This document shows, in pieces, positions 8,011-20,739 of a DNA stretch of 24,699 nucleotides (the stretch's first letter is position 1; each line of letters begins with the position of its first letter). The notes below the pieces were generated by a model. It was not told the origin of the DNA. It did no database searches and saw only the letters and a program-made list of their open reading frames with translations. The DNA is from a virus. Position numbers and translations under genes: made by a program. The stretch spans positions 1-24,699 of the IMG/VR virus record IMGVR_UViG_3300045988_176129; one strand, given 5' to 3'.

Positions 8011-8160
8011 TACGTTAGTAGTTAGGCTTAACTAATTTTAGTTGCATACGGCTAACTCTAGTTAGTTCTGACTAACTCCTGTTAGGCTGAACTAACTCAG
8101 GTTCGTCTTAGCTAACCTTGGTTAGACTGAACTAACTTCTGTTAATCACCGCTAACCTCT
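8011..8160. repeat. tandem array of ~7 degenerate ~20-21-bp direct repeats (GTTAGGCTGAACTAACTCnn)
   Basis: Visible periodicity: agttaggcttaactaatttt / agttgcatacggctaactct / agttagttctgactaactcct / gttaggctgaactaactcag / gttcgtcttagctaaccttg / gttagactgaactaacttct / gttaatcaccgctaacctct. Confidence 0.65.
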
Positions 8161-8180
8161 GGGGTGGGCGGGTGGGGGAG
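8161..8180 (+). other. G-quadruplex-type G-tract (GGGGTGGGCGGGTGGGGG), copy 1 of 5
   Basis: Four or more G3-5 runs with 1-nt loops in a 30% GC background. Same relative position as the tracts at 9469, 10669, 11381 and 12786. Confidence 0.6.
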
Positions 8181-8190
8181 GCTTGGGATA

Positions 8191-8219
8191 ATTATACCAC
8201 AAATCTATCTTTTTGTCAA
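8191..8219 (-). promoter_or_regulatory. leftward extended -10 sigma-70 promoter, cassette copy 1
   Basis: rc TTGACA (8214-19), 17-nt spacer, rc TGGTATAAT (8191-99). Confidence 0.5.
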
Positions 8220-8267
8220 GTAGTAATTTTTCACAAAAATAAAAAATTTTTTTGTGCATTTTGCCTA

Positions 8268-8296
8268 TTGACATGGGCGCATTTTTGTGCTATAAT
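8268..8296 (+). promoter_or_regulatory. sigma-70 promoter with no downstream ORF (putative ~450-nt ncRNA 8303-8750)
   Basis: TTGACA 8268-73, 17-nt spacer, TGcTATAAT 8291-96. No SD/ORF before the terminator at ~8715-8752. Confidence 0.5.
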
Positions 8297-8316
8297 TAAA
8301 ATGATATTAAAATGAT

Positions 8317-8351
8317 ACTTTAGCACGTTAAAGTGTCATCACTGCAAAGCG
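8317..8351. repeat. conserved ~35-nt hairpin element (ACTTTAG-CACG-TTAAAGT + GTYATCACTGNRAAGCG), copy a
   Basis: Family also at 8527-8562, 8607-8640, 8683-8703, 9421-9456, 10628-10663, 12725-12760 and 20699-20733. The stem covaries through G-U pairs. Confidence 0.6.
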
Positions 8352-8375
8352 AAAGACTAAGTTAAAATCCGTTTA

Positions 8376-8405
8376 ATTATACCACACAGTCGTATGGTTT
8401 GTCAA
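8376..8405 (-). promoter_or_regulatory. leftward sigma-70 promoter, cassette copy 2 (faces the plus promoter at 8268 across element a)
   Basis: rc TTGACA (8400-05), 18-nt spacer, rc TATAAT (8376-81). Confidence 0.45.
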
Positions 8406-8430
8406 TAGTAAAATGCAAAAAAAATTGCAC

Positions 8431-8462
8431 AAATTTTAATTTCCCATTTTGTGCAATCTGCA
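8431..8462. promoter_or_regulatory. operator-like inverted repeat TTGCACAA-N16-TTGTGCAA
   Basis: Perfect 8-bp arms. A member of the TGCACAA motif family enriched in intergenic DNA. Confidence 0.45.
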
Positions 8463-8479
8463 CAACGAACAAGTGTTTG

Positions 8480-8690
8480 GTTAGCCTTAACTAACTGTCC
8501 AAACAAACGTTCGGTTAGGCAAGACTAACTTTAGTGCGTTAAAGTGCTATCACTTTGCAGTGAACGTGTGGTCGGTTAGGTAAGACTAACTCAAGTTAGG
8601 AGAGGCTAACTTTAGCACACTAAAGTGATGCAGTAGCAAAGAGTTAGTTAAGACTAATTTAAGTTAGTTCAGACTAACATTAACACTTTA
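8480..8690. repeat. second cluster of GTTAG..GACTAACT iteron-like repeats interleaved with three copies of the 35-nt element
   Basis: ggttagccttaactaact / cggttaggcaagactaact / cggttaggtaagactaactc / agttagttaagactaatt / agttagttcagactaac. Confidence 0.55.
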
Positions 8691-8714
8691 ATGTGTTAAA
8701 GTGTTAATACAAAA

Positions 8715-8752
8715 GAGTAGCACAAAGAACACCTGTTCTCTGTGCTTTTTTC
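8715..8752. terminator. bidirectional rho-independent terminator
   Basis: Hairpin GCACAAAGAACACC/TGTTCTCTGTGC followed by TTTTTTCTTTTAT on plus; T-rich on minus as well. Confidence 0.5.
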
Positions 8753-8754
8753 TT

Positions 8755-8880
8755 TTATTTGTTCAATGATTCAATAATCGTAAAACCTGCCATTTCCGCA
8801 TGTCTTATTTCTTCTGTTGTCATTTCTGTTTTTCCTATTGTGCTATTGTTTAATTTTACTATTACTTTTCTCATGGCCAT
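8755..8880 (-). CDS. hypothetical small protein (41 aa) on minus strand inside the early region
   Basis: AAGGAAAGG SD plus its own minus promoter (8910-8938). MAMRKVIVKLNNSTIGKTEMTTEEIRHAEMAGFTIIESLNK. Not in the track (<60 aa). Confidence 0.4.
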   Translation of the reverse strand: MAMRKVIVKLNNSTIGKTEMTTEEIRHAEMAGFTIIESLNK

Positions 8881-8909
8881 CACCAATTCCTTTCCTTATC
8901 TTTATACTA

Positions 8910-8938
8910 ATAATACATCAAAGCCAAACAAAAGTCAA
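8910..8938 (-). promoter_or_regulatory. sigma-70 promoter (minus) for the 8880->8755 gene
   Basis: rc TTGACT (8933-38), 17-nt spacer, rc TATTAT (8910-15). Divergent from the plus promoter at 8981. Confidence 0.45.
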
Positions 8939-8980
8939 TAGTTTTTTACAAAAAAAATAAAAAATATTTTTAAAAAAGTA

Positions 8981-9009
8981 TTGACAAATTGTTAGTTATC
9001 TGGTATTAT
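8981..9009 (+). promoter_or_regulatory. sigma-70 promoter
   Basis: TTGACA 8981-86, 17-nt spacer, TATTAT 9004-09. Confidence 0.5.
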
Positions 9010-9047
9010 TAGATTACAAGGTAAGGAAAGAGAGGAAAGAAACAAAA

Positions 9048-9119
9048 GTGGAGGAACTTATTCAGTGGCAAAGAGAGTTAGGTATTAGTGAGGAACAGAT
9101 AAAAATTAACATGAGGTGA
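9048..9119 (+). CDS. possible GTG-initiated micro-ORF (23 aa, MEELIQWQRELGISEEQIKINMR)
   Basis: Only ORF downstream of promoter 8981. SD AGAGAGG is 11-12 nt from the GTG, which is weak. Confidence 0.2.
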   Translation: MEELIQWQRELGISEEQIKINMR

Positions 9120-9157
9120 TAATTCAATACTAGATGATGAAATAATAAAAATAAGTG

Positions 9158-9186
9158 TTGACAAATGAAGTATTAGATGTTATAAT
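9158..9186 (+). promoter_or_regulatory. sigma-70 promoter
   Basis: TTGACA 9158-63, 17-nt spacer, TATAAT 9181-86. Confidence 0.55.
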
Positions 9187-9239
9187 AAATATATAATAAA
9201 GGAAAGGAAACCCCACCAAAGGGGTAAAGGTAAAAGATT

Positions 9240-9377
9240 ATGAAAACACCAAAAACAAGAGGATTTTATGAGTTCAAAGATGGTACAGTGGTTTGGTTTG
9301 CTGGATTAAGTGCTAGTGAGCAGAGAAAAGAGATTGCTAAGCATGGCGCAATCATAAAGTTTACACATACTAACTAA
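9240..9377 (+). CDS. hypothetical small protein (45 aa)
   Basis: Leader AAAGGAAAGG-hairpin(CCCC/GGGG)-AAAGGTAAAAGATT-ATG. MKTPKTRGFYEFKDGTVVWFAGLSASEQRKEIAKHGAIIKFTHTN. Followed by a terminator. Confidence 0.5.
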   Translation: MKTPKTRGFYEFKDGTVVWFAGLSASEQRKEIAKHGAIIKFTHTN

Positions 9378-9380
9378 AAA

Positions 9381-9410
9381 TGGGGGCGGTCGCTAAACCG
9401 CTCCTTTTAT
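9381..9410. terminator. rho-independent terminator (bidirectional)
   Basis: GGGGCGG-tcgctaaa-CCGCTCC with a G-U pair, then TTTTAT. The minus strand also has ATTTTTAG after the stem. Confidence 0.55.
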
Positions 9411-9468
9411 CTACCCTTGCCGCTTTAGCACGTTGAAGTGTTATCGCTTCACAGCGTCGCACCCCAGT

Positions 9469-9488
9469 ATTGGGCGGGTGGGTGGGTT
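9469..9488 (+). other. G-quadruplex-type G-tract (GGGCGGGTGGGTGGG), copy 2
   Basis: Preceded by a CCCC-agtatt-GGG mini-hairpin. Confidence 0.55.
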
Positions 9489-9497
9489 ATATATAAT

Positions 9498-9526
9498 ATT
9501 ATACCACATTTTCGTCCAGTTGTCAA
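9498..9526 (-). promoter_or_regulatory. leftward extended -10 promoter, cassette copy 3
   Basis: rc TTGACA (9521-26), 17-nt spacer, rc TGGTATAAT (9498-9506). Confidence 0.5.
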
Positions 9527-9649
9527 GAGTAAAAATTCACAAAAGTAAAGAAAATTTTTTGTAACTATTGCACATTGACTTCTAATGTCAATGGCAAAAA
9601 TAGCCAAAGATCTGCCGCACATTTTATGCAACTTTTTTATCAAAAATAG

Positions 9650-9678
9650 TTGACATGTAATAATTCTTTTGTTATAAT
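9650..9678 (+). promoter_or_regulatory. sigma-70 promoter
   Basis: TTGACA 9650-55, 17-nt spacer, TATAAT 9673-78. Leader GTATACATAAGATAAAGGAAA is shared with promoter 10858. Confidence 0.55.
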
Positions 9679-9720
9679 GTATACATAAGATAAAGGAAAA
9701 AGAAAGAGAGGTAAAAAATT

Positions 9721-9939
9721 ATGGAATACAGAACAATTACAGCAGAGGATTTATACAACGCATTAGTAGAGGTTTGCGGAGTATCTGAGGAATTTATCAG
9801 TGGGGCAGTTGCCGTTGGTGGATTCACGAAGGAAACAATGCATGATGTAGCCTATTATAAAAGCGGTTATCAAACCGTTGAGGATTGGGTTGACGCTATT
9901 ACCGATGAATTTTTAGAAGAGTTAGAAAAGGAGGACTAA
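9721..9939 (+). CDS. hypothetical acidic protein (72 aa)
   Basis: AGAGAGGTAA SD. Confidence 0.6.
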   Translation: MEYRTITAEDLYNALVEVCGVSEEFISGAVAVGGFTKETMHDVAYYKSGYQTVEDWVDAITDEFLEELEKED

Positions 9940-9943
9940 TACA

Positions 9944-10111
9944 ATGCCTAAATTAAGAGATGAAACATTAAGAGAACAGCTCATGCTTACATTGATTAAA
10001 AAGCGTGGACATGAGGACAGAGAGGTTATCCAGTTTTGCAATCTTTGCGAACTTAAAGAATTAAGCGATAAAACAATAAGAGATATTTTTGATAGGTTGA
10101 TAAAAGAATAG
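9944..10111 (+). CDS. hypothetical small protein (55 aa)
   Basis: GGAGGA SD 9929-34. Not in the track. Confidence 0.5.
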   Translation: MPKLRDETLREQLMLTLIKKRGHEDREVIQFCNLCELKELSDKTIRDIFDRLIKE

Positions 10112-10123
10112 GAGGTATCTATA

Positions 10124-10279
10124 ATGAATGATAAAGAGACATTAAAAGATATTTTTTCAAAAGCAAAAATTGAAATCCTCACCGAAGAAGAGGATTATTT
10201 AGAGATAGCAACAAGGGGTTACAATATTGTTAGCCTTACTTTTGATAAAGATGGAAAATTAACTAAAATTTTTGCTTGA
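10124..10279 (+). CDS. hypothetical small protein (51 aa)
   Basis: GGAGG SD 10111-15. Stop overlaps the -35 of the next promoter. Confidence 0.5.
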   Translation: MNDKETLKDIFSKAKIEILTEEEDYLEIATRGYNIVSLTFDKDGKLTKIFA

Positions 10280-10304
10280 CATTTTATCTCTACTAATGTA
10301 TAAT
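10276..10304 (+). promoter_or_regulatory. sigma-70 promoter
   Basis: TTGACA 10276-81, 17-nt spacer, TATAAT 10299-304. Confidence 0.5.
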
Positions 10305-10339
10305 TAAAGTATCAAAAGAAAAGAGAAGGTACAAAAGTT

Positions 10340-10579
10340 ATGAGAGATTTTTTTAATATTAAGGATGACTACTACAGATTTGAAATCTATGACCTTACTG
10401 CAATTTTAACAATTTTAAATGTTGTGTTCGTGCTCATGGGTTATTGGTGGGCGCCGATATTTGGACTTGTAAACTGTGCAATTTGTTTAACAATGAATGT
10501 TATTAACAGGTTGCACATAAACGCCTATCTTACTCAGGTCGCGTTAATAATTTTAAATGTTTACTTTTTAACCTTGTAG
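10340..10579 (+). CDS. small membrane protein (79 aa, 2 TM)
   Basis: AGAGAAGGTA SD; hydrophobic. Confidence 0.6.
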   Translation: MRDFFNIKDDYYRFEIYDLTAILTILNVVFVLMGYWWAPIFGLVNCAICLTMNVINRLHINAYLTQVALIILNVYFLTL

Positions 10580-10586
10580 TAAAGGG

Positions 10587-10620
10587 GCGGATGCTAATAT
10601 TTTAGCATCTGCTTTTTTTG
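10587..10620 (+). terminator. rho-independent terminator
   Basis: GCGGATGCTAA-tatt-TTAGCATCTGC then TTTTTTTG. Confidence 0.6.
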
Positions 10621-10668
10621 TTTGTTACACTTTAACACGTTAAAGCGTAATCACTGAGAAGCGCAGAA

Positions 10669-10698
10669 GGGGTCCGACTTAGGGTGGTAGGGTGGGTA
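10669..10698 (+). other. G-quadruplex-type G-tract (GGGGtccgacttaGGGTGGTAGGGTGGG), copy 3
   Basis: Same cassette position. Confidence 0.5.
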
Positions 10699-10705
10699 TA
10701 GATAT

Positions 10706-10735
10706 ATTATAACACATTTCTTGCCCAGTTGTCAA
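10706..10735 (-). promoter_or_regulatory. leftward extended -10 promoter, cassette copy 4
   Basis: rc TTGACA (10730-35), 18-nt spacer, rc TGTTATAAT (10706-14). Confidence 0.45.
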
Positions 10736-10857
10736 TAGTTAAAATTCACAAAAATGATTAAATTTTTTGTTACTATTGACTATTGACAAAAAATTACAAT
10801 GTGCAATAGTAACAAAAAACTTAATGCTAATTTATTCAACTTTTTTCTACTTTTTTA

Positions 10858-10886
10858 TTGACTTTTAACGCTTAAAGCCTTATAAT
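10858..10886 (+). promoter_or_regulatory. sigma-70 promoter
   Basis: TTGACT 10858-63, 17-nt spacer, TATAAT 10881-86. Confidence 0.55.
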
Positions 10887-10939
10887 GTATACATAAGATA
10901 AAGGAAAGGAAATCCAATAAGGATTAAAGGTAAAGAATT

Positions 10940-11284
10940 ATGAGAACAGCAAAGGTGATATTTATTTCAGAAGAAGAGAAAAGCATGATTGACAGATTAA
11001 AAAAGGCATATATGGCAACTGATTCAGGTAAAAAGAAAAACGCTAGAATCGGAGTTGTTCTCACTGAGATGTGGTATGAGGATAGTCTCAGTTTCGAGGA
11101 TTTCCAAATAGATGAAATAGACTGGAATATGATAGACGATATATTAACAGCTTATGAAGATGAGCCATTAAGAGATAATGAAGGTTATATCTTTGATAAA
11201 GAAGATATGCTGGATGCATTGGCGGACTTTGACCCGTTAGCAGATTCTAAAATATACCATGATTATAAAATTATGATAATGTAA
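10940..11284 (+). CDS. hypothetical acidic protein (114 aa)
   Basis: Leader AAAGGAAAGG-hairpin(AATCC/GGATT)-AAAGGTAAAGAATT-ATG. Confidence 0.6.
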   Translation: MRTAKVIFISEEEKSMIDRLKKAYMATDSGKKKNARIGVVLTEMWYEDSLSFEDFQIDEIDWNMIDDILTAYEDEPLRDNEGYIFDKEDMLDALADFDPLADSKIYHDYKIMIM

Positions 11285-11288
11285 GAAA

Positions 11289-11320
11289 AAAGGCAAGCAC
11301 TTTTTATGCTTGCCTTTATT
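11289..11320 (+). terminator. rho-independent terminator
   Basis: AGGCAAGC-actttttat-GCTTGCCT then TTATTAT. Confidence 0.55.
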
Positions 11321-11380
11321 ATAGCTTAAAAGTTAGTTGTAACTAACTAAGATTAGACTCGACTAACTCCGGTCTTCTCC
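11321..11380. repeat. third short cluster of GTTAG/ACTAACT iteron-like repeats
   Basis: aagttagttgtaactaactaagattagactcgactaactcc. Confidence 0.45.
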
Positions 11381-11408
11381 GGGGTGGGTGGGAGGGGGAG
11401 GGTGGAGG
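11381..11408 (+). other. G-quadruplex-type G-tract (GGGGTGGGTGGGAGGGGGAGGGTGGAGG), copy 4
   Basis: Same cassette position. The leftward -10 here is degenerate (TTAGCA). Confidence 0.55.
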
Positions 11409-11564
11409 ATAAGTTTAGCACAAATCAGCTTTTTTGTCAATTGGTAAAAATTCACAAAAGTAAAGGAAAATTTTTAGTATTATTGACTATTGTATCTTTT
11501 TGTCAATGTGCAATAGTAACAAAATTTTAAACTTTAATTTGTGCATTTTTTTTCTTCAAAACAC

Positions 11565-11592
11565 TTGCAATTTATAACCAAAGTGATATAAT
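11565..11592 (+). promoter_or_regulatory. sigma-70 promoter
   Basis: TTGCAA 11565-70, 16-nt spacer, TATAAT 11587-92. Confidence 0.5.
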
Positions 11593-11616
11593 AAATAATG
11601 TAAGGAGGCGATAACA

Positions 11617-11730
11617 ATGATAGTAATAATCAATGATACAAAGTTTGGTTTAATGCTAGTTGACTCTGAGACTGGTGAGATATTAGCTGAGGGCAAACAG
11701 GAAATAATAAATTTTATAAAAAGTTGTTGA
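11617..11730 (+). CDS. hypothetical micro-protein (37 aa)
   Basis: AAGGAGG SD. MIVIINDTKFGLMLVDSETGEILAEGKQEIINFIKSC. Confidence 0.4.
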   Translation: MIVIINDTKFGLMLVDSETGEILAEGKQEIINFIKSC

Positions 11731-11755
11731 CAAATAAAGCACAAAGTGATATAAT
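11727..11755 (+). promoter_or_regulatory. sigma-70 promoter
   Basis: TTGACA 11727-32, 17-nt spacer, TATAAT 11750-55. Confidence 0.55.
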
Positions 11756-11809
11756 AAATACAAGATAAAGGAAAGGGAATCCAAAAAAAGGATTTAAAGG
11801 TAAAAAGAT

Positions 11810-11980
11810 ATGAGAAAAATAGTAGTAAAAACAAATGGACAGATAATAATGACAATAGCAACTAGCGGCGTTGCTAAAATAATTCAGATGAACGATACAA
11901 CTTATAGATATACAGATATATGGGGCGATAGTAAGACATTCAAAGTTAGGAAAGGCTCTGAAGTAACTTTGGAAGATTAA
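11810..11980 (+). CDS. hypothetical small protein (56 aa)
   Basis: Leader with AATCC-A7-GGATT hairpin and AAAGGTAAAAAGAT-ATG. Confidence 0.5.
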   Translation: MRKIVVKTNGQIIMTIATSGVAKIIQMNDTTYRYTDIWGDSKTFKVRKGSEVTLED

Positions 11981-12033
11981 AATATATAATTAAGGGGCGG
12001 TTAGTTGATACCGCCCAGGAAGAGGGACATTGT

Positions 12034-12174
12034 ATGACAAAGCAGGAAATACTAGACTATATGGACGATTTTAAGGATGAATATGGAAGCTCATTTACAG
12101 ATTCAAATTTTGAGATAAGCAATATTATAGAAGAAGCATTAGACCTGTATTTTGATACAATAAAGGAGGCATAA
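12034..12174 (+). CDS. hypothetical small acidic protein (46 aa)
   Basis: GGAAGAGGG SD. Preceded by a GGGCGGT/ACCGCCC hairpin that lacks a T-tract. Confidence 0.45.
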   Translation: MTKQEILDYMDDFKDEYGSSFTDSNFEISNIIEEALDLYFDTIKEA

Positions 12175-12175
12175 T

Positions 12176-12298: not shown

Positions 12299-12308
12299 GG
12301 AGGATAAT

Positions 12309-12686: not shown

Positions 12687-12716
12687 GGGCGGAGAGACAT
12701 TCTCCGCCTTTTATCT
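12687..12716. terminator. rho-independent terminator
   Basis: GGCGGAGAG-acat-TCTCCGCC then TTTTAT. Confidence 0.6.
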
Positions 12717-12785: not shown

Positions 12786-12801
12786 GGGGTGGGTGGGTGG
12801 G
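12786..12801 (+). other. G-quadruplex-type G-tract (GGGGTGGGTGGGTGGG), copy 5
   Basis: Canonical (G3N1)4. Preceded by CCCC-acttt-GGGG. Confidence 0.6.
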
Positions 12802-12809: not shown

Positions 12810-12838
12810 TATTATACCACAGATTACTGTCTTTGTCA
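12810..12838 (-). promoter_or_regulatory. leftward extended -10 promoter, cassette copy 6
   Basis: rc TTGACA (12833-38), 17-nt spacer, rc TGGTATAAT (12810-18). Confidence 0.5.
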
Positions 12839-12886
12839 ATAGATAAATTATCCTAAAATTAAAAAATTTTTTGTGCAATATTTTAC

Positions 12887-14646: not shown

Positions 14647-14695
14647 ATGCACAAAAAGCCTGAGGTAGAAAATATCTCAGGCTTTTTGTGCATTT
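14647..14695. terminator. bidirectional terminator / large perfect palindrome
   Basis: TGCACAAAAAGCCTGAGG-tagaaaatat-CCTCAGGCTTTTTGTGCA. Arms carry the TGCACAA motif. T-rich flanks on both strands. Confidence 0.55.
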
Positions 14696-14758: not shown

Positions 14759-14787
14759 TTGACAAGCACCCCTGTATGTGATATAAT
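14759..14787 (+). promoter_or_regulatory. sigma-70 promoter firing into a GC hairpin
   Basis: TTGACA 14759-64, 17-nt spacer, TATAAT 14782-87. Confidence 0.5.
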
Positions 14788-14790: not shown

Positions 14791-14819
14791 GCGGCGCGTG
14801 CCCTGCCCTTACGCGCCGC
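14791..14819. other. perfect 9-bp GC hairpin (GCGGCGCGT-gccctgccctt-ACGCGCCGC) between convergent promoters
   Basis: Both facing promoters would start transcription inside or adjacent to it. Confidence 0.55.
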
Positions 14820-14822: not shown

Positions 14823-14852
14823 ATTATACCATAGTCCCCTATGGTTTGTCAA
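14823..14852 (-). promoter_or_regulatory. leftward extended -10 promoter, cassette copy 7
   Basis: rc TTGACA (14847-52), 18-nt spacer, rc TGGTATAAT (14823-31). Confidence 0.5.
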
Positions 14853-16373: not shown

Positions 16374-16381
16374 AAAAGATG

Positions 16382-16410: not shown

Positions 16411-16459
16411 ATAAGAGTAGTAAATAACACATAACAAAAAAAAGAAAGGTGGAATTAGT

Positions 16460-16843: not shown

Positions 16844-16848
16844 TGAAA

Positions 16849-16882
16849 GTGGGGCAAGGGATTGAAAAAATCCTTTGCTCCA
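16849..16882 (+). terminator. 12-bp hairpin with two G-U pairs (GGGGCAAGGGAT-tgaaaaa-ATCCTTTGCTCC), terminator-like
   Basis: No clean T-tract after it, so termination may be partial. Confidence 0.35.
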
Positions 16883-16909
16883 TGAATAAAAATTTAATTG
16901 AGAATCCGC

Positions 16910-16938
16910 TTGACATTGCTTTATTCTTTTGATATAAT
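16910..16938 (+). promoter_or_regulatory. sigma-70 promoter
   Basis: TTGACA 16910-15, 17-nt spacer, TATAAT 16933-38. Confidence 0.55.
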
Positions 16939-16972
16939 AGAGTTATGAAAAAGAGATAAGGAGGTTGTAAAA

Positions 16973-17113
16973 ATGAGCAACAAAGAATATTTTGCATACA
17001 TGGACAAATGGCTTGAGAAAAAGCGCAAAGAATTACAGCCCCCTAAAGTTACGGCGGTTAAAAAGAAGAGAAAAAGGTGGATAAAAAATGAAAGCAATAG
17101 TAATAAGAATTGA
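16973..17113 (+). CDS. possible small basic protein (46 aa, KKKRKRW-rich) overlapping the next gene by 26 nt
   Basis: Strong AAGGAGG SD 16958-64, 8 nt before the ATG. Confidence 0.4.
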   Translation: MSNKEYFAYMDKWLEKKRKELQPPKVTAVKKKRKRWIKNESNSNKN

Positions 17114-17345
17114 TGATGAATATCTTCCCGCAGTCGCAAAAGATTATAAGGCAGCCATTCGGTTTTTAATTGATAAAGGATGGATAGACGAAGAAACAGA
17201 AATTTGGATTGACGAAGAAGATAAATACATAACAATACAGGAGGCAGGTATTAGACTAGAAGATATTAAAAACTATAATAGAGATACTTTTGAAAAATAC
17301 TTTGGATATGATTATGAACTAGTTGACAGAGAACTTGTAGAATAA
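17088..17345 (+). CDS. hypothetical acidic protein (85 aa)
   Basis: GGTGGA SD. Followed by a terminator. Confidence 0.6.
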   Translation: MKAIVIRIDDEYLPAVAKDYKAAIRFLIDKGWIDEETEIWIDEEDKYITIQEAGIRLEDIKNYNRDTFEKYFGYDYELVDRELVE

Positions 17346-17351
17346 AAGTCA

Positions 17352-17388
17352 ATTGGCAAGATGCACAAAATCTTGCCAATTTTTTTAT
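17352..17388. terminator. bidirectional rho-independent terminator with TGCACAA in the loop
   Basis: ATTGGCAAGA-tgcacaaa-TCTTGCCAAT then TTTTTTTAT. The minus strand also has a T-rich flank. Confidence 0.6.
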
Positions 17389-17424
17389 GCATTTTTTTAT
17401 AAAAAAAGACTTGACATTCTGATT

Positions 17425-17457
17425 TGGCGGCGCGCTGACGCTCTTATAGCGCCGCCA
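17425..17457. other. 9-bp GC hairpin (TGGCGGCGC...GCGCCGCCA) just downstream of the leftward promoter
   Basis: Same architecture as 14791-14819. Confidence 0.5.
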
Positions 17458-17458
17458 A

Positions 17459-17488
17459 ATTATACCATACCCTCGTATGGTTTGTCAA
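17459..17488 (-). promoter_or_regulatory. leftward extended -10 promoter, cassette copy 8
   Basis: rc TTGACA (17483-88), 18-nt spacer, rc TGGTATAAT (17459-67). Confidence 0.5.
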
Positions 17489-17618
17489 GACATAAAATAC
17501 AAAAAACTTGCACAAATTTCATAATCCCGAAAGGCTAAATTTCTCTCTATTGCACAAAAGTAAAAATTCTTTGTGCAACATGCACAAAGATTCACTCTCT
17601 CGCCCCCATTTTTTATAC

Positions 17619-17647
17619 TTGCATTTTATAAAAATTTTTGATATAAT
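17619..17647 (+). promoter_or_regulatory. sigma-70 promoter (1 of 4 tandem)
   Basis: TTGCAT 17619-24, 17-nt spacer, TATAAT 17642-47. Confidence 0.45.
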
Positions 17648-17706
17648 TGTATTAAAGATAAGGGATAGAAAATATCTCAAGTCTTAAAAATCTCATAAAA
17701 AAGTTA

Positions 17707-17735
17707 TTGACATGAATAAATATTTATGTTATAAT
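17707..17735 (+). promoter_or_regulatory. sigma-70 promoter (2 of 4 tandem)
   Basis: TTGACA 17707-12, 17-nt spacer, TATAAT 17730-35. Confidence 0.55.
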
Positions 17736-17795
17736 AAAACAAAAGTGAGATTTCAATAAGGACTTAAAAAAATCAATAAGATTTTAAAAAAGTCC

Positions 17796-17824
17796 TTGAC
17801 AAAAAACCAAAAGTATGATATACT
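17796..17824 (+). promoter_or_regulatory. sigma-70 promoter (3 of 4 tandem)
   Basis: TTGACA 17796-801, 17-nt spacer, TATACT 17819-24. Confidence 0.5.
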
Positions 17825-17854
17825 TAATACATAATAAGGAAGGAGGTAAGAAAC

Positions 17855-17875
17855 ATGAGGTCACCGCCTAGATAA
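17855..17875 (+). CDS. 6-codon mini-ORF MRSPPR behind a perfect AGGAGGT SD
   Basis: AAGGAAGGAGGTAAGAAAC-ATG-AGG-TCA-CCG-CCT-AGA-TAA. Possible leader peptide (Pro-Pro stall motif) or decoy. Confidence 0.3.
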   Translation: MRSPPR

Positions 17876-17887
17876 AATAAAAAAAGT

Positions 17888-17916
17888 GTTGACAAAAATT
17901 TAAAAATATGATATAA
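17888..17916 (+). promoter_or_regulatory. sigma-70 promoter (4 of 4 tandem)
   Basis: TTGACA 17888-93, 17-nt spacer, TATAAT 17911-16. Confidence 0.55.
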
Positions 17917-17929
17917 TAAAAATGTAAAA

Positions 17930-18030
17930 AAGATAAGGCTTAAGGCTTCAAAAATGATTTCGACCCTGTGCCTATTCAAACAGGGCTGAATAAGAGGTTT
18001 GAGGTTCAACCCCTTCGCCTTACCAAAAAA
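17930..18030 (+). ncRNA. structured ~100-nt 5' leader with a T-arm-like hairpin and duplicated GGGCTGAAT motif
   Basis: Hairpins CCCTGT-gcctattcaa-ACAGGG and GAGG-TTCAACC-CCTT, ending in ...GCCTTACCA. Not a canonical tRNA by hand folding. Confidence 0.25.
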
Positions 18031-18082
18031 TGTGGGCTGAATGATAACAATAAATTTTAAACATTGAAAGGATGGATGTATT

Positions 18083-18526
18083 ATGACACAGAGAGAGATG
18101 TATAACACAATTAAGAACATTATCACAGGTATTTCAACAGAGGACTTCGAGGCACTTGCCCCAGAGTTTTCAAGAGAAGAGATTGTTGAGGGTATTGATG
18201 CTAGAATTGAGGCACTCAATAAGAAGTCAACAGGTTCAAAGAAGCCTACAAAGACTCAGATTGAGAACGAGGGCATATATGCTAATATTCTTGCGTTTAT
18301 GGCGGATGGTGCGGCTCGTACTAACAAAGCTATTACTGATACCTATAATCTTCTGTATAACACAGAGTATTCTACAAACAAGATTCAGGCTCAGGTAACT
18401 AAGGCTGTCAAGGGTGGCGCGCTTAACAGGGCAGTAGTAAAGGGTGTCGTATATTTCACCATAAATGCTACTCCTACCGCCACAGATGACTCAGCAGAAG
18501 ATATTGTTGATGATGTAGAAGAGTAA
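18083..18526 (+). CDS. hypothetical protein, paralog B of the 16460 gene, with an extra acidic C-terminal tail
   Basis: MTQREMYNTIKNI...ARIEALNKK...ENEGIY...QVTKAVKGG...VVKGVVYF. AAAGGATGGA SD. Confidence 0.7.
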   Translation: MTQREMYNTIKNIITGISTEDFEALAPEFSREEIVEGIDARIEALNKKSTGSKKPTKTQIENEGIYANILAFMADGAARTNKAITDTYNLLYNTEYSTNKIQAQVTKAVKGGALNRAVVKGVVYFTINATPTATDDSAEDIVDDVEE

Positions 18527-18576
18527 TTTTTAATATAGTATAAGGGTGTGAGGGCAACTCCCCTCCGCCCGGAATA

Positions 18577-18653
18577 GCAAGGTTATAAAAATTCGTTTTT
18601 ATAGTGGTTATAATTTTATAATTATAAAAAAGGTTCGACTCCTTTACCTTGCA
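18577..18653 (+). ncRNA. tRNA-like element (possible degenerate or atypical phage tRNA)
   Basis: Perfect 7-bp acceptor stem GCAAGGT/ACCTTGC. Canonical T-arm AAAGG-TTCGACT-CCTTT (G53 T54 T55 C56 R57 A58 ... C61). D arm TAAA/TTTA. The anticodon arm is AT-rich and non-canonical: best fit is an 8-nt loop, and the D-loop has no GG. Confidence 0.3.
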
Positions 18654-18685
18654 TTTAACTAGTTTACTTTTGGATTTCCTTAAAT

Positions 18686-18711
18686 GGGGCGGTCAATACC
18701 TTCACCGCCCC
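18686..18711 (+). other. 8-bp GC hairpin GGGGCGGT-caataccttc-ACCGCCCC without a T-tract
   Basis: Upstream of promoter 18732. Possible processing or partial-termination site. Confidence 0.35.
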
Positions 18712-18731
18712 GCACACCTTAAAAATAGGTG

Positions 18732-18760
18732 TTGACAAATTGAGGTATAGGGTGTATAAT
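18732..18760 (+). promoter_or_regulatory. sigma-70 promoter
   Basis: TTGACA 18732-37, 17-nt spacer, TATAAT 18755-60. Confidence 0.55.
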
Positions 18761-18791
18761 AAGGTATAATCAAAAAAGGATGGTGGTAGTT

Positions 18792-19211
18792 ATGAAAATA
18801 ACAACAACAAAAGGTAAAAGTGTTAATGTAAAAGATAGCGTTATTCAGAAATACATGAACGACTTCTCTCTTACAAAAGAGGACGCTATTCAGATGTATC
18901 TTGAGGATGAAGGCTTCGAGGATAACGAGGATGTAGAAGAAATGACTACAAAAGCCAAAGAAAATAAAGCAGTTATGCATGGCGAGAGTGCTGACAAAGA
19001 CGAACGCAAAGTCACCAACAAGAAACAGTCTAAGCCTAAGACAGTGAAAATCTCAGATACAAAAAAAGAACTTTTTAGTAAAATATCACAGTTTTTGACC
19101 GAAACTTTTGGTGAAAATGCTGAAGTTCTTAAAGAAAATAAGCTGATACAGGTTAAAATTGGTGAAGATATGTTCAAAATAGACATAATTCAGCAGAGAA
19201 AACCAAAGTAA
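18792..19211 (+). CDS. hypothetical charged protein (139 aa)
   Basis: AAAGGATGG SD with 9-nt spacing to ATG 18792. The track start 18780 abuts the SD. Confidence 0.6.
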   Translation: MKITTTKGKSVNVKDSVIQKYMNDFSLTKEDAIQMYLEDEGFEDNEDVEEMTTKAKENKAVMHGESADKDERKVTNKKQSKPKTVKISDTKKELFSKISQFLTETFGENAEVLKENKLIQVKIGEDMFKIDIIQQRKPK

Positions 19212-19243
19212 TTTGGTAAAATTTAACAAATGACCTCTCTTTT

Positions 19244-19287
19244 GAGCGAGTTTTTAGTAAAAAATGCTAAAAATTCGCTCTTTTTTT
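19244..19287 (+). terminator. rho-independent terminator
   Basis: GAGCGAG-25-nt loop-CTCGCTC then TTTTTTT. Confidence 0.45.
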
Positions 19288-19302
19288 GTGCAATTTTTAT
19301 AC

Positions 19303-19331
19303 TTGACAAGAGATAAAAGATATGGTATAAT
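19303..19331 (+). promoter_or_regulatory. sigma-70 promoter firing directly into a GC hairpin plus T-tract
   Basis: TTGACA 19303-08, 17-nt spacer, TGGTATAAT 19323-31. Then GCGGGGCGC...GCGCCCCCGC (19334-62) followed by TTTTAAAAA. Confidence 0.5.
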
Positions 19332-19423
19332 GGGCGGGGCGCGATAGACCGGGCGCCCCCGCTTTTAAAAATCAAGTGTAATTTTGAACAAAAATAAAAT
19401 AATTTTTTGTTTATTTTGTCTAT

Positions 19424-19451
19424 TGATAAAATCCTAAAACATTGTTATAAT
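19424..19451 (+). promoter_or_regulatory. sigma-70 promoter
   Basis: TTGATA 19424-29, 16-nt spacer, TATAAT 19446-51. Confidence 0.45.
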
Positions 19452-19486
19452 GTATTTACAAAGTTAAGGAAAGAGAGGTAACTAAA

Positions 19487-19741
19487 ATGAAAGTATCAAG
19501 AAAAATGAAAGTGCCAAGAAATGAAATGATTAAAATCAGAAAAAATCTTCTCAGACAGATGGATGATTATCTGCGGTCAAGCGTTGATGAAAACATTATC
19601 ATTGATATTTGGTTTGCTGTTGGTCTTGAGGATGGATGGGATAATAATATTTTAACAGAGTATGCAAGTGATGAAGATTTATGGCTGTCTTGCGTTAATG
19701 CTTTTAAAGCCTGTTGTGAAAGAGAAAATATTTTAAAATAA
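19487..19741 (+). CDS. hypothetical protein (84 aa)
   Basis: AGAGAGGTAA SD. Confidence 0.6.
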   Translation: MKVSRKMKVPRNEMIKIRKNLLRQMDDYLRSSVDENIIIDIWFAVGLEDGWDNNILTEYASDEDLWLSCVNAFKACCERENILK

Positions 19742-19747
19742 TGTTTC

Positions 19748-19776
19748 TTGACAAATAGTTGACCATATGGTATAAT
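19748..19776 (+). promoter_or_regulatory. sigma-70 promoter
   Basis: TTGACA 19748-53, 17-nt spacer, TGGTATAAT 19768-76. Confidence 0.55.
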
Positions 19777-19805
19777 AAATATATAAAGAAAGAGAGGTAA
19801 TTGAA

Positions 19806-20144
19806 ATGAAAGATTTTATTATTATGGCAATCGTTATGACAATAGTAGTTGGAGCGCTTTTATCATTTATAATTGTAAATATTTTCGCAGAAAATAGTAA
19901 GTCTATATTAAAAAAGATTATTACTGTAATAATTGCTATTGCTATTGGATGTGGAATAAGTGGATTATTCGCACTGGAAAGAAGGGGTGATGAAGTAGCA
20001 TGGAACAATGGTTATTGTACAGAATGTGAACATCCTTATAGATTCGCTAATACAGAGTATCACAGAAATGCGGGAACTACTTATATTTGGGTTTGTGATA
20101 ATTGTGGAAAAATAATTGAATTGCATAGTAAATATTCAAAATAA
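19806..20144 (+). CDS. membrane protein (2 TM) with C-terminal zinc ribbon (CTEC...CDNC)
   Basis: AGAGAGGTAA SD. Hydrophobic N-terminal half and a Cys4 ribbon. Confidence 0.65.
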   Translation: MKDFIIMAIVMTIVVGALLSFIIVNIFAENSKSILKKIITVIIAIAIGCGISGLFALERRGDEVAWNNGYCTECEHPYRFANTEYHRNAGTTYIWVCDNCGKIIELHSKYSK

Positions 20145-20163
20145 AAAGGAGGAATAAGATATA

Positions 20164-20469
20164 ATGAATATTGAAAATAAAATAAGCGGTTGGAAAATTA
20201 CAGGTTTTGAAACAAAGCCGATTTTTGATAGTCAAATTCTTTCTCTTGAGGAGTGCATGAAAACAATCAAAAAACAGGAAACAATGAATTTTATCCTTGA
20301 TACATTCCGTTTTATTAAAGGAATGAAAGAAGGCGACTGGTTCGCTCTTATTGACCGTGATACGATTATGAAAATTTCTATTATGGAAACAAATTCAAAA
20401 GAAGAAGAACAACTAAAAGAGTATTTTGGCGAAAACTGGATTGAAAATTATTTACGGTTTAATCATTAA
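20164..20469 (+). CDS. hypothetical protein (101 aa)
   Basis: AAGGAGGAA SD. Confidence 0.6.
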   Translation: MNIENKISGWKITGFETKPIFDSQILSLEECMKTIKKQETMNFILDTFRFIKGMKEGDWFALIDRDTIMKISIMETNSKEEEQLKEYFGENWIENYLRFNH

Positions 20470-20483
20470 AGATTGCGGAGAAT

Positions 20484-20516
20484 GATAGAAGAGTAAAATC
20501 TTCTATCATTTTTTTG
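20484..20516 (+). terminator. rho-independent terminator ending the plus-strand early block
   Basis: GATAGAAGA-gtaaaa-TCTTCTATC then ATTTTTTT. Confidence 0.6.
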
Positions 20517-20526
20517 CATTTACCTA

Positions 20527-20555
20527 TTGACAAAAGCAAGAAAGTATGCTAAAAT
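20527..20555 (+). promoter_or_regulatory. sigma-70 promoter firing into a GC hairpin (no ORF)
   Basis: TTGACA 20527-32, 17-nt spacer, TAAAAT 20550-55. Hairpin CGGGCC...GGCCCG at 20558-84. Confidence 0.45.
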
Positions 20556-20586
20556 GTCGGGCCGCGCACGTAGGAGCAGGCCCGCA

Positions 20587-20615
20587 ATTATACCACAAAT
20601 TACACTTCAAGTCAA
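20587..20615 (-). promoter_or_regulatory. leftward extended -10 promoter, cassette copy 9
   Basis: rc TTGACT (20610-15), 17-nt spacer, rc TGGTATAAT (20587-95). Confidence 0.45.
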
Positions 20616-20739
20616 GTTTTTTTCAAAATAAAAATGCACAAATTTTTTGCTATTTTCCCGAAAGTCTTTGTGCAATTTGTACAATGTGATGCGGTAGCAC
20701 TTTAACGCGGTGAAGTGTAACAGTATGAAGTGATAAAGG

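What the first reader, a model, noticed from the sequence alone, without database searches (positions are those of the whole stretch)
8150..20620. Recurrent intergenic cassette with leftward extended -10 promoters predicted to make short antisense or non-coding RNAs
Nine positions carry rc TTGACA-17/18-TGGTATAAT on the minus strand, although every protein gene in this block is on the plus strand. They are 8191-8219, 8376-8405, 9498-9526, 10706-35, 12810-38, 14823-52, 17459-88 and 20587-615, plus a degenerate copy near 11412-40. Each points back at the terminator of the upstream plus-strand gene. That terminator has T-rich flanks on both strands, so predicted leftward transcripts are ~80-170 nt. 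Examples are 9490->9380, 17452->17350 and 14815->14640. These RNAs would begin with a C-rich tract or GC hairpin and include the conserved 35-nt element. No ORF or SD follows these promoters, so they are not mRNAs. One minus promoter (8910-38) does drive a 41-aa ORF, showing the strand is used. The regular placement (terminator, 35-nt element, G-tract or GC hairpin, leftward promoter, operator-like box, rightward promoter, gene) looks like a duplicated regulatory module. Possible roles are insulation of early operons from read-through by convergent transcription, or a family of cis-antisense regulators.
Basis: seen in the sequence. Interest (0 to 1): 0.75.

Follow-up and report, generated by a model that had tools for sequence, protein, structure and literature searches.

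The report
Backward-facing promoters between phage early genes
Between the early genes of an uncultured ~140-kb gut phage sit nine near-perfect host-type promoters that point backwards at the preceding gene's terminator; related phages keep the same promoter-plus-GC-structure module, so the promoters are real, but what they do is only inferred.

Summary
Seven perfect and two weaker TTGACA-17/18-TGnTATAAT promoters lie on the minus strand inside a plus-strand block of small early genes; about 0.05 such matches are expected by chance. No ribosome-binding-site-preceded ORF follows any of them.

The sites belong to a repeated module: intrinsic terminator, GC-rich structure, leftward promoter, palindrome TGCACAAA-N14-TTTGTGCA, rightward promoter(s), gene. 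In this lineage the GC-rich structure is either a hairpin or a plus-strand G-quadruplex motif.

The module recurs in about 20 related metagenomic phage genomes, with up to 10 copies per locus, and weakly in Enterococcus phage H1. Cassettes retrieved through the palindrome alone still show a -35, a 17-bp spacer, TG and a -10, with tolerated variants such as TACAAT. The hairpins co-vary.

Predicted leftward RNAs are short and non-coding (median about 97 nt), and their sequence is not conserved between cassettes. Terminators next to leftward promoters are not specially bidirectional.

Best reading, inferred: a composite barrier between early transcription units that acts in cis by convergent transcription, rather than a family of trans-acting small RNAs. 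It is a new variant of known kinds (lambda OOP, face-to-face promoters, T4 PeSL cassettes). No expression data exist.

The parts
8191..8219 (-). Leftward promoter TTGACA-17-TGGTATAAT. Predicted start about 8184. It runs over the G-tract and the GTTAG-N6-CTAAC array, with no terminator within 220 nt.
8376..8405 (-). Leftward promoter with an 18-bp partly palindromic spacer. It runs over a 35-nt element and then head-on into plus promoter 8268-8296.
9498..9526 (-). Leftward promoter. The predicted RNA spans about 9491 to 9376 (about 115 nt) and ends at the terminator 9382-9405 read leftward.
10706..10735 (-). Leftward promoter (TGTTATAAT, 18-bp spacer). The leftward reading of terminator 10581-10618 has a poor U-run.
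11412..11440 (-). Degenerate copy (TTGACA-17-TAAACT, 10/12). A good leftward terminator lies at 11289-11317.
12811..12839 (-). Leftward promoter. The predicted RNA spans about 12804 to 12678 (about 125 nt).
14823..14852 (-). Leftward promoter with an 18-bp palindromic spacer (ACCATAG-N4-CTATGGT), face to face with plus promoter 14759-14787. The predicted RNA ends at about 14640.
17459..17488 (-). Leftward promoter with an 18-bp palindromic spacer. The predicted RNA spans about 17452 to 17343 (about 110 nt).
20587..20615 (-). Leftward promoter (TTGACT -35, 11/12), face to face with plus promoter 20527-20555.
8161..8178 (+). G-quadruplex motif GGGGTGGGCGGGTGGGGG, just downstream of the 8191 start site on its template strand.
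9472..9486 (+). G-quadruplex motif GGGCGGGTGGGTGGG.
10681..10695 (+). Near-motif GGGTGGTAGGGTGGG.
11381..11398 (+). G-quadruplex motif GGGGTGGGTGGGAGGGGG.
12786..12801 (+). G-quadruplex motif GGGGTGGGTGGGTGGG. A loop base differs in sister contig L001 while the G-runs are kept.
14791..14819 (.). GC hairpin lying between the two -10 boxes of the face-to-face pair.
17424..17458 (.). GC hairpin abutting the -10 of the 17459 promoter.
20558..20584 (.). GC hairpin between plus promoter 20527-20555 and leftward promoter 20587-20615.
9382..9405 (+). Intrinsic terminator of gene 9240-9377, usable in both directions.
12687..12709 (+). Intrinsic terminator of gene 12499-12681, listed on both strands.
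14648..14694 (+). Long terminator hairpin extended by TGCACAAAAAG/CTTTTTGTGCA arms, with U-runs on both sides.
17351..17381 (+). Bidirectional terminator of gene 17088-17345.
8423..8455 (.). Palindrome TGCACAAA-N14-TTTGTGCA upstream of the -35 of the leftward promoter. Further copies lie near 14872-14912, 17509-17588 and 20635-20674. A degenerate A/T-rich form lies at 8223-8258, 9529-9563, 10737-10770, 11444-11478 and 12842-12877.
8268..8296 (+). Rightward consensus promoter placed divergently to 8191 (48 nt between the -35 boxes). It would make an ORF-less RNA of about 450 nt ending at terminator 8719-8746.
14759..14787 (+). Rightward consensus promoter face to face with 14823. The predicted start sites are about 20 bp apart.
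9422..9456 (+). 35-nt element (family D7). Other copies: 8317-8351, 8528-8562, 8609-8643, 8685-8719, 10629-10663, 12726-12760 and a diverged one near 20697. It contains a conserved short palindrome CACTTTA..TAAAGTG, with no real covariation.
8910..8938 (-). Weaker leftward promoter (10/12) that drives the one real minus-strand gene of the block, the 41-aa ORF 8755-8880.

Best explanation
The nine sites are genuine host sigma-A (sigma-70 type) promoters with an extended -10. They belong to a repeated intergenic module in the early-gene block of a clade of roughly 100-190-kb phages of Firmicute-type hosts.

Reading rightward, each module has:
1. the intrinsic terminator of the preceding operon;
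2. a GC-rich structure-forming element: a co-varying hairpin without a U-run, or in this lineage a plus-strand G-quadruplex tract;
3. the leftward promoter;
4. a conserved palindrome, TGCACAAA-N14-TTTGTGCA, with centre TATCCC(G/A)AAA;
5. one or two rightward promoters and the next gene.

The leftward promoter fires into the short gap back towards the terminator. It makes a non-coding transcript that is often about 60-170 nt long and starts with the GC structure.

Proposed mechanism (inferred, not shown): the module is a directional barrier between successive early transcription units. Polymerases that read through the terminator would meet a second hairpin, or a G-rich non-template strand, and then head-on polymerases from a very strong promoter. 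This would shield the regulated rightward promoters downstream from read-through. Any leftward transcripts that pass the terminator would run antisense into the 3' end of the upstream operon. On this view the act of transcription matters more than the RNA sequence.

Shown by computation: the promoters, the module, its conservation, the hairpin covariation and the absence of coding potential. Inferred: that the promoters fire, where the RNAs end, and the barrier function. The confidence given (0.45) is for the whole statement including the barrier function; that the sites are real promoters I would put at about 0.85.
For: - **Promoter quality and chance.** 23 perfect matches against 0.05 expected, seven of them leftward, all seven with TG.
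- **Conservation.** Anti-oriented TG-extended consensus promoters occur inside the same plus-strand early block in about 20 related genomes whose exonuclease-like protein is about 55-64% identical to the window's. There are up to 10 per locus (L014/L015) and five in L103. Two weaker ones occur in cultured Enterococcus phage H1.
- **Non-circular test.** Retrieval through the palindrome alone recovers -35, 17/18-bp spacer, TG and -10, with only tolerated -10 variants.
- **GC structure.** The 55 nt after anti-oriented promoters fold with a median of -13.2 kcal/mol, against -4.5 after co-oriented ones. 42% against 4% reach -15 kcal/mol or below (p = 1e-13).
- **Hairpin covariation.** Among paralogous cassettes, 8 of 10 hairpin pairs show compensatory double changes and only 1 of 80 cells is broken.
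- **Hairpin independent of the leftward promoter.** Hairpin and palindrome persist where the leftward promoter is missing (L075, L057, L074, L079, L080, L009). The hairpin is therefore a barrier or structural element in its own right.
- **G-tract orientation.** All five G-tracts are on the plus strand, which is the non-template strand for rightward read-through. From my own knowledge of published in-vitro work, not checked here, this is the orientation in which G-rich DNA blocks transcription.
- **No coding potential**, and no Rfam family.
- **No shared RNA sequence.** Transcribed sequences differ between cassettes, which argues against a shared trans-acting seed.
- **RNA length.** Median distance to the first leftward terminator-like site is 97 nt; 42 of 51 have one within 400 nt.
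Against: - No RNA data exist, so promoter activity and RNA ends are predictions.
- The rightward terminators already look strong (for example 14648-14694), so extra insulation is not obviously needed.
- In the well-studied face-to-face promoter pair of coliphage 186 (my own knowledge), elongating polymerases tend to displace promoter-bound ones, so a head-on promoter attenuates rather than blocks.
- Terminators next to leftward promoters are not enriched for bidirectionality, so nothing shows selection for a defined short RNA.
- The hairpins show no strand asymmetry (29 against 26 G.U pairs), so the strand or molecule on which the structure acts is unknown.
- Two of the nine promoters (8191, 8376) sit in a long ORF-less, repeat-rich region and face no gene.
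- About 5 of roughly 12 operon boundaries I counted by eye in the block lack a leftward promoter.
Confidence: 0.45

Rival explanations
1. The leftward transcripts are the functional product: abundant, stable small RNAs. A GC hairpin within a few nucleotides of the 5' end and a terminator hairpin at the 3' end would protect them from exonucleases. They would act by base pairing on read-through or 3' ends of the upstream mRNA (lambda OOP-like, RNase III dependent), or as decoys.
For: In most relatives the hairpin begins 7-11 nt after the -10, that is at about +1 to +5 of the RNA. From my own knowledge of Bacillus RNA decay, this is the geometry needed for 5'-end protection. Many predicted RNAs are compact two-hairpin molecules of 60-130 nt. 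Four window RNAs carry the antisense of the 35-nt element, whose sense copies are clustered in the ORF-less RNA predicted from promoter 8268.
Against: There is no conserved single-stranded sequence between cassettes. The hairpin persists without the promoter. In the three hairpin-type cassettes of the window, the hairpin starts 1-4 nt after the -10, so part of its 5' arm lies upstream of the likely start site. There is no enrichment of leftward terminators. If the RNAs are terminated, overlap with the upstream coding region is nil or a few bases.
Confidence: 0.22
2. Divergent-promoter coupling: the leftward promoter exists to help its rightward neighbour. It would do so by generating negative supercoiling in the A/T-rich palindrome region between them on an injected linear genome, or by sharing a regulator or UP-like element bound at the palindrome. 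The leftward RNA would be a by-product.
For: The arrangement is fixed and back to back: 47-48 nt lie between the -35 boxes at 8219/8268 and 12839/12887. The distance from the -35 to the palindrome is conserved in relatives. TGCACAAA occurs 19 times against 0.97 expected, almost only in these spacers. The rightward promoters next to the palindrome often have weak -35 boxes, as activator-dependent promoters do.
Against: Many rightward promoters in the block are already perfect consensus and need no help. The palindrome and rightward promoter exist without the leftward promoter in several clades. This idea does not explain the GC structure or the face-to-face pairs.
Confidence: 0.15
3. Regulated silencing of early genes. 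The short leftward RNAs would be the terminated, idle state, as with the lambda PR' 6S RNA. Later in infection a phage factor would let leftward transcription pass the terminators and run antisense through each early operon, shutting it off.
For: A strong constitutive-looking promoter lies at the 3' end of 7 of roughly 12 early operons counted by eye. Leftward terminators are of very uneven strength. The phage encodes a sigma-like protein.
Against: No antiterminator or recognisable nut/put/qut-like conserved element was found. Hairpin loops are not conserved. The idea is purely by analogy.
Confidence: 0.1
4. The sites are by-products of duplication and shuffling of a regulatory cassette: leftward promoters that hitch-hike with the useful parts and have no function of their own.
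For: The cassettes are clearly paralogous. Gene replacements between the window and its 98% sister contig are bounded by promoter/5'UTR and terminator sequences. Degenerate or deleted copies exist (11412; relic at 19340-19378; L009).
Against: The hexamers, TG and spacing stay near-perfect across genomes whose proteins are only about 55-64% identical, while spacers and flanks diverge, and changes fall on tolerated positions. That is the signature of purifying selection on promoter function.
Confidence: 0.08

Closest known systems
Lambda OOP RNA (77-nt antisense RNA from promoter pO; own knowledge, Krinke and Wulff 1987)
   Same: A short non-coding RNA from a host-type promoter that points against an early rightward operon. 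It ends at an intrinsic terminator and lies at the 3' end of the upstream gene.
   Different: OOP is a single copy and overlaps about 55 nt of the cII coding region, which is how it works. Here there are 8-10 copies per genome, and the predicted RNAs stop at or before the stop codon. Each carries a GC hairpin or C-tract, and the sequence is not conserved.
Face-to-face promoter pairs: coliphage 186 pR/pL and P22 Pant/Psar (own knowledge; the modelling paper PMC5001618 appeared in the search list but was not read)
   Same: Convergent promoters a few tens of bp apart whose polymerases interfere. The window has such pairs at 14759/14823 and 20527/20587.
   Different: The known pairs are single genetic switches that control a lysis/lysogeny or immunity decision. 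Here the pairs are a minority form of a multi-copy module in a block of early genes, with a GC hairpin between the two -10 boxes and start sites only about 20 bp apart.
PeSL cassettes of T4-type phages (PMC2839356, PMC4122927; titles and abstracts seen)
   Same: Repeated intergenic promoter-plus-stem-loop motifs flank small variable early genes, and gene gain, loss and replacement occur at them. The window and its sister contig differ by replacements bounded by such motifs.
   Different: As I understand them (not read in full), PeSLs are co-oriented promoter-terminator composites. They have no opposing promoter, no palindromic operator-like box and no G-quadruplex tract, and they belong to Gram-negative myoviruses.
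Collision-enforced termination at convergent units, and engineered antisense promoters at gene 3' ends (own knowledge: Ju et al. 2019; Brophy and Voigt 2016)
   Same: A promoter placed downstream of, and against, a transcription unit, separated from it by a terminator usable from both sides.
   Different: Those cases involve convergent genes or synthetic constructs. Here the opposing unit encodes nothing, and it is a conserved, multiplied natural element.

Membership tests
Sigma-A / sigma-70 extended -10 promoter | -35 TTGACA, 17±1 bp spacer, TG at -15/-14, -10 TATAAT | tested here: met
   Seven sites match 12/12 with TG, one matches 11/12 and one 10/12.
Sigma-A / sigma-70 extended -10 promoter | Constraint pattern across relatives fits a promoter: hexamers and spacing kept, spacer sequence free, changes only at tolerated positions | tested here: met
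   In the palindrome-anchored set, 27/32 have a -10 of at least 5/6, the spacer is 17 or 18 bp, the variants are TACAAT and TATACT, and TG is present in 25/27.
Sigma-A / sigma-70 extended -10 promoter | Transcription starts 6-8 nt downstream of the -10 in vivo or in vitro | not testable with these tools
   No RNA data are available.
Cis-antisense RNA of the lambda OOP type | Short RNA from a promoter opposing an early operon, ended by an intrinsic terminator | tested here: inconclusive
   A good leftward terminator exists for 5 of 9 window sites. In relatives the median is 97 nt, but there is no enrichment of bidirectional terminators.
Cis-antisense RNA of the lambda OOP type | Extensive overlap with the coding region of the upstream gene | tested here: not met
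   If terminated, the RNAs end at the terminator just after the stop codon (for example 9376-9491 against the gene end at 9377).
Trans-acting small RNA family | Conserved sequence or structure shared by the copies beyond a generic hairpin | tested here: not met
   The transcribed parts differ between cassettes. There is no Rfam match. The 35-nt element occurs in only four and shows no real covariation.
PeSL-like mobile regulatory cassette | Repeated promoter/stem-loop motifs at the borders of gene insertions, deletions or replacements between close relatives | tested here: met
   Breaks between the window and L001 fall at 9204-9366, 14439-14659 and 19481-19779, at promoter/5'UTR and terminator motifs.
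PeSL-like mobile regulatory cassette | Promoter co-oriented with the flanking genes; homology to T4-type motifs | tested here: not met
   The elements in question point against the genes. The phage is unrelated to T4-type phages; its nearest cultured relatives are Enterococcus H1/EF1 and the Lactococcus 949 group.
G-quadruplex-forming sequence | Four runs of at least 3 G separated by loops of 1-7 nt | tested here: met
   Four exact motifs with 1-nt loops, all on the plus strand, against 0.024 expected. Also present in relatives L001, L103 and L110.
G-quadruplex-forming sequence | Actual folding into a quadruplex in DNA or RNA | not testable with these tools
   This needs biophysics (circular dichroism, K+-dependent polymerase stop).
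Bidirectional intrinsic terminator | GC-rich hairpin flanked by an A-run upstream and a T-run downstream | tested here: inconclusive
   Clear at 14648-14694, 17351-17381, 11289-11317 and 12687-12709, weaker at 9382-9405, and poor at 10581-10618 and 20481-20510. There is no class-wide enrichment.

The most novel reading that the evidence does not exclude
The module is a previously undescribed composite, directional transcription insulator. It would consist of a canonical terminator, a U-less GC hairpin or a non-template-strand G-quadruplex, a head-on super-consensus promoter and a palindromic operator. It has multiplied as a portable unit through the early regions of a large family of uncultured gut phages. 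Its leftward products would be a new class of very abundant, 5'-hairpin-capped phage non-coding RNAs.
Probability: 0.2. Interest if true: 0.75.

Novelty: new variant of a known kind. Interest (0 to 1): 0.6.

Why it matters
If the leftward promoters fire as predicted, this phage group spends eight to ten of its strongest promoters per genome on transcripts that encode nothing. It places them, with a structure-forming GC element, at the boundary of each early gene cassette.

That would be a natural, evolved solution to insulating tandem transcription units. It would interest people working on phage gene regulation and on synthetic-biology parts for Gram-positive hosts.

It would also be a rare case in which G-quadruplex motifs and hairpins occupy the same functional slot in an AT-rich bacterial virus. 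The clade is abundant in gut metagenomes: its exonuclease-like marker protein has more than 2,300 relatives in the protein collection. Cultured distant relatives exist (Enterococcus phages H1, EF1, VRE9), so the question is directly testable.

Tried and rejected
- **Searches that found nothing.** Megablast of the region against 50,697 phage records gave no match. A single-protein scan of IMG/VR found no relatives; an alignment-based scan then gave 80 loci. ARAGORN found no tRNA.
- **Rfam.** At gathering and at permissive thresholds, only the group I intron passes. The Thr/L20-leader hits are just terminators, and the GP20-a hit (27.7 bits against a 47.2 cut-off) rests on the promoter and hairpin of 19292-19398.
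- **Plus-strand protein-binding boxes instead of promoters.** Rejected by the palindrome-anchored analysis.
- **Small peptides encoded by the leftward RNAs.** Rejected; there are no SD-preceded ORFs.
- **Which strand the hairpin serves.** G.U counts (29 against 26) and energies (p = 0.06) were inconclusive.
- **Selection for short leftward RNAs through bidirectional terminators.** No enrichment was found.
- **35-nt element as a structured RNA.** It is only a conserved short palindrome; two of its ten predicted pairs show a double change but are broken in three of seven copies, so there is no real covariation. It is more likely a protein site.
- **G-tract as a simple replacement for the hairpin.** Weakened by L103, where the two co-occur.
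- **Exact G-tract-plus-promoter pattern.** Absent from IMG/VR. Of 24 metagenome hits, only two are relatives.
- **Overlapping bidirectional -10 symmetry.** Considered and rejected: the divergent promoters here are 47 bp or more apart, with a palindrome between them.
- **CRISPR-repeat or ToxI mimicry by the repeats.** Considered and rejected: the copies are degenerate and the hairpins differ in sequence.
- **Literature.** Five searches found no description of this module.

Full report
**What the window is.** The window is part of an uncultured phage of a host with sigma-A-type promoters.
- It has 30-35% G+C and no near match among 50,697 deposited phage genomes.
- Minus-strand genes occupy 838-4709: a GIY-YIG homing endonuclease beside a group I intron, a terminase-like protein and a sigma-like protein.
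- A plus-strand block of small genes occupies 4867-20469, and minus-strand genes resume at 21187.
- The same DNA is found in two public assemblies, at 100% and 98% identity.
- A 320-aa exonuclease-like protein inside the block has more than 2,300 relatives in metagenomes.
- Related contigs range from about 14 to 190 kb; the longest, about 100-190 kb, look like near-complete genomes and share the gene layout.
- The nearest cultured relatives, at about 26-34% protein identity, are Enterococcus phages H1/EF1/VRE9. Weaker hits fall in the Lactococcus 949 group. H1 has the same arrangement of a terminase-side minus block followed by a plus block of small genes.

**The observation.** All nine sites are present on the minus strand.
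- Seven match TTGACA-17/18-TGnTATAAT perfectly, 20587 has TTGACT, and 11412 is degenerate.
- The window has 23 perfect TTGACA-N16-19-TATAAT matches against 0.05 expected, so chance is excluded.
- Eight of the nine are identical in the 98% sister contig.
- No Shine-Dalgarno-preceded ORF of 10 aa or more lies within 250 nt downstream of any of them.
- The only real minus-strand gene in the block is the 41-aa ORF behind the weaker promoter at 8910-8938.

- Two promoters (8191, 8376) face no gene. They lie in the ORF-less stretch 7623-8760.
- The 35-nt element lies in only four of the predicted transcripts.
- Leftward terminators are convincing for five sites, weak for two and absent for one.

**Anatomy.** Two cassette forms exist.
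- *Form A* (8191, 9498, 10706, 11412, 12811): terminator, 35-nt element or GTTAG-N6-CTAAC repeats, a plus-strand G-tract, the leftward promoter, an A/T-rich degenerate palindrome, then rightward promoters.
- *Form B* (14823, 17459, 20587): a GC hairpin directly abuts the -10. Two of the three are face to face with a rightward promoter, with predicted start sites only about 20 bp apart. The palindrome TGCACAAA-N-TTTGTGCA follows.
- Four of the five G-tracts are canonical quadruplex motifs with one-nucleotide loops, against 0.024 expected. All five are on the plus strand.
- TGCACAAA occurs 19 times against 0.97 expected.

**Comparative evidence.** I scanned 80 IMG/VR loci and several metagenome contigs.
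- Anti-oriented, TG-extended consensus promoters lie inside the plus-strand early block of about 20 related genomes. There are up to ten per locus in L014/L015 and five in L103. Two weaker ones occur in Enterococcus phage H1.
- They are almost always followed at once by a GC hairpin. The 55 nt downstream fold with a median of -13.2 kcal/mol against -4.5 for co-oriented promoters. 42% against 4% reach -15 kcal/mol (p = 1e-13).
- The hairpin usually starts 7-11 nt after the -10.
- Hairpin sequences differ but pairing is kept. In eight paralogous cassettes, 8 of 10 pairs show compensatory double changes and only 1 of 80 cells is broken. A second clade has a conserved first hairpin and a co-varying second one.

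**Are they promoters or something else?** To avoid circularity I collected cassettes through the palindrome alone and then examined what lies to its left.
- 32 of 49 had a -35-like box.
- 27 of those 32 had a -10 of at least 5/6, at a spacer of 17 bp (23 cases) or 18 bp (4 cases).
- 25 of the 27 had TG.
- The only variant -10 hexamers were TACAAT and TATACT, which keep the positions that matter most for a -10.
- Spacer sequences are otherwise free.

This is the constraint pattern of a promoter, not of a fixed protein-binding box.

**What limits the short small-RNA picture.**
- Predicted leftward transcripts are short: 42 of 51 have a leftward terminator-like site within 400 nt, with a median of 97 nt.
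- However, terminators followed by a leftward promoter are no more bidirectional than other terminators in the same blocks.
- The transcribed sequence is not conserved between cassettes.
- No Rfam family matches.
- The hairpins show no strand bias in G.U pairs (29 against 26).
- Hairpin and palindrome persist in clades and cassettes where the leftward promoter is deleted, so the hairpin is not merely a 5' cap for the leftward RNA.

**Most likely mechanism (inferred).** Three things lie between the end of one early operon and the regulated promoters of the next:
1. a GC hairpin without a U-run, or a G-tract placed on the non-template strand for rightward transcription;
2. a very strong opposing promoter;
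3. an operator-like palindrome.

Together they read best as a directional barrier that keeps read-through out of the next unit, acting in cis through convergent transcription. Leaky leftward transcripts may also run antisense into the 3' end of the upstream operon.

I put about 0.45 on this. The rivals are:
- stable regulatory or decoy RNAs (0.22);
- supercoiling or regulator coupling with the divergent rightward promoter (0.15);
- regulated late antisense silencing (0.10);
- hitch-hiking without function (0.08).

**Comparison with known systems.**
- The nearest single-copy analogue is lambda OOP, but the defining overlap with the upstream coding region is not met.
- Face-to-face pairs recall coliphage 186 pR/pL and P22 Pant/Psar, which are single switches.
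- As repeated promoter/stem-loop cassettes at the borders of gene replacements, the elements behave like T4 PeSLs (PMC2839356, PMC4122927). Unlike PeSLs, they carry an opposing promoter, a palindrome and, in this lineage, G-quadruplex motifs.
- I found no paper that describes the module.

**Verdict.** The feature is real, non-random and conserved. The promoter interpretation is well supported, and the function is unresolved. It is a new variant of known kinds, of moderate to good interest, and testable in cultured Enterococcus phage relatives.

Noticed in passing
window 650-911 (-) and 838-2378 (-): A group I intron (Rfam 94.7 bits) carries or abuts a GIY-YIG homing-endonuclease ORF (838-1674), next to a terminase-large-like ORF (1587-2378). 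The terminase gene is probably split by the intron.
   Followed up: partly
window 7623-8760: A 1.1-kb ORF-less region holds 12 of the window's 16 GTTAG-N6-CTAAC palindromes (0.66 expected), in 20-bp register at 8021-8156 and 8480-8678. It also holds four copies of the 35-nt element. Promoter 8268-8296 would make an ORF-less RNA of about 450 nt ending at 8719-8746. The same motifs occur in relatives (L006, L012, L014, L028). It looks like an array of protein-binding sites (origin, partition or packaging site?).
   Followed up: partly
window 8161-8178, 9472-9486, 11381-11398, 12786-12801 (+); near-motif 10681-10695: One-nucleotide-loop G-quadruplex motifs in a 31% G+C genome, all on the plus strand. 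They are also present in the close sister contig L001 and in two related metagenome contigs (L103, L110). In L103 the motif coexists with a GC hairpin.
   Followed up: yes
window 8423-8455, 14872-14912, 17509-17588, 20635-20674; relatives L003-L091: The palindrome TGCACAAA-N14-TTTGTGCA has a deeply conserved centre TATCCC(G/A)AAA. The centre is kept even in Enterococcus phage H1, where the arms differ. It could be an operator for an unknown regulator, or a promoter element for the phage sigma-like protein.
   Followed up: partly
window 8376-8405, 14823-14852, 17459-17488; L006 4186 and L016-L021: The 18-bp spacers of these leftward promoters are themselves palindromes (ACCATAN-N4-NTATGGT) whose inner positions co-vary. 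The right arm overlaps the TG extension and the start of the -10.
   Followed up: no
window 19303-19365: A perfect rightward promoter is followed immediately by a GC hairpin and TTTT, giving a transcription unit of about 35 nt. Beside it lies a relic of a deleted leftward promoter (19340-19378). Similar promoter-then-terminator mini-units occur in relatives (for example L015 near 8400).
   Followed up: no
window 18577-18653 (+): A tRNA-like fragment with only an acceptor stem and T arm (Rfam tRNA 27.9 bits, cut-off 29). ARAGORN does not call it.
   Followed up: no
window 9204-9366, 14439-14659, 19481-19779, 21095-23629 against L001: The 98%-identical sister contig differs by whole-gene replacements or deletions. 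Their borders fall in the repeated promoter/5'UTR and terminator motifs, which is cassette shuffling of the PeSL kind.
   Followed up: partly
window 9190-9240, 10890-10940, 11760-11810: A conserved 5' leader 'ATAAAGGAAAGG, small hairpin, AAAGGTAAA' lies in front of several early genes. A longer conserved leader-like sequence (12930-13000, 17930-18060, 20740-20880, with recurring GTTGAAAG) also appears in L015 and L068.
   Followed up: no
IMG/VR loci L013, L014, L024, L026, L033, L041, L051, L054, L056, L065, L072, L075, L078, L087: Many long contigs end within about 8 kb downstream of the exonuclease-like gene (two end within 40 bp of it). This corresponds roughly to the strand switch at about 20.7-21.2 kb of the window. 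It may be a physical genome end or terminal repeat, or an assembly break at repeats.
   Followed up: no
window 11995-12016, 13549-13575, 16100-16135, 18690-18712: GC hairpins of the form GGGGCGGT...ACCGCCCC without a following T-run punctuate other gene boundaries, often just upstream of a rightward promoter. U-less hairpins seem to be a general punctuation mark in this phage.
   Followed up: no
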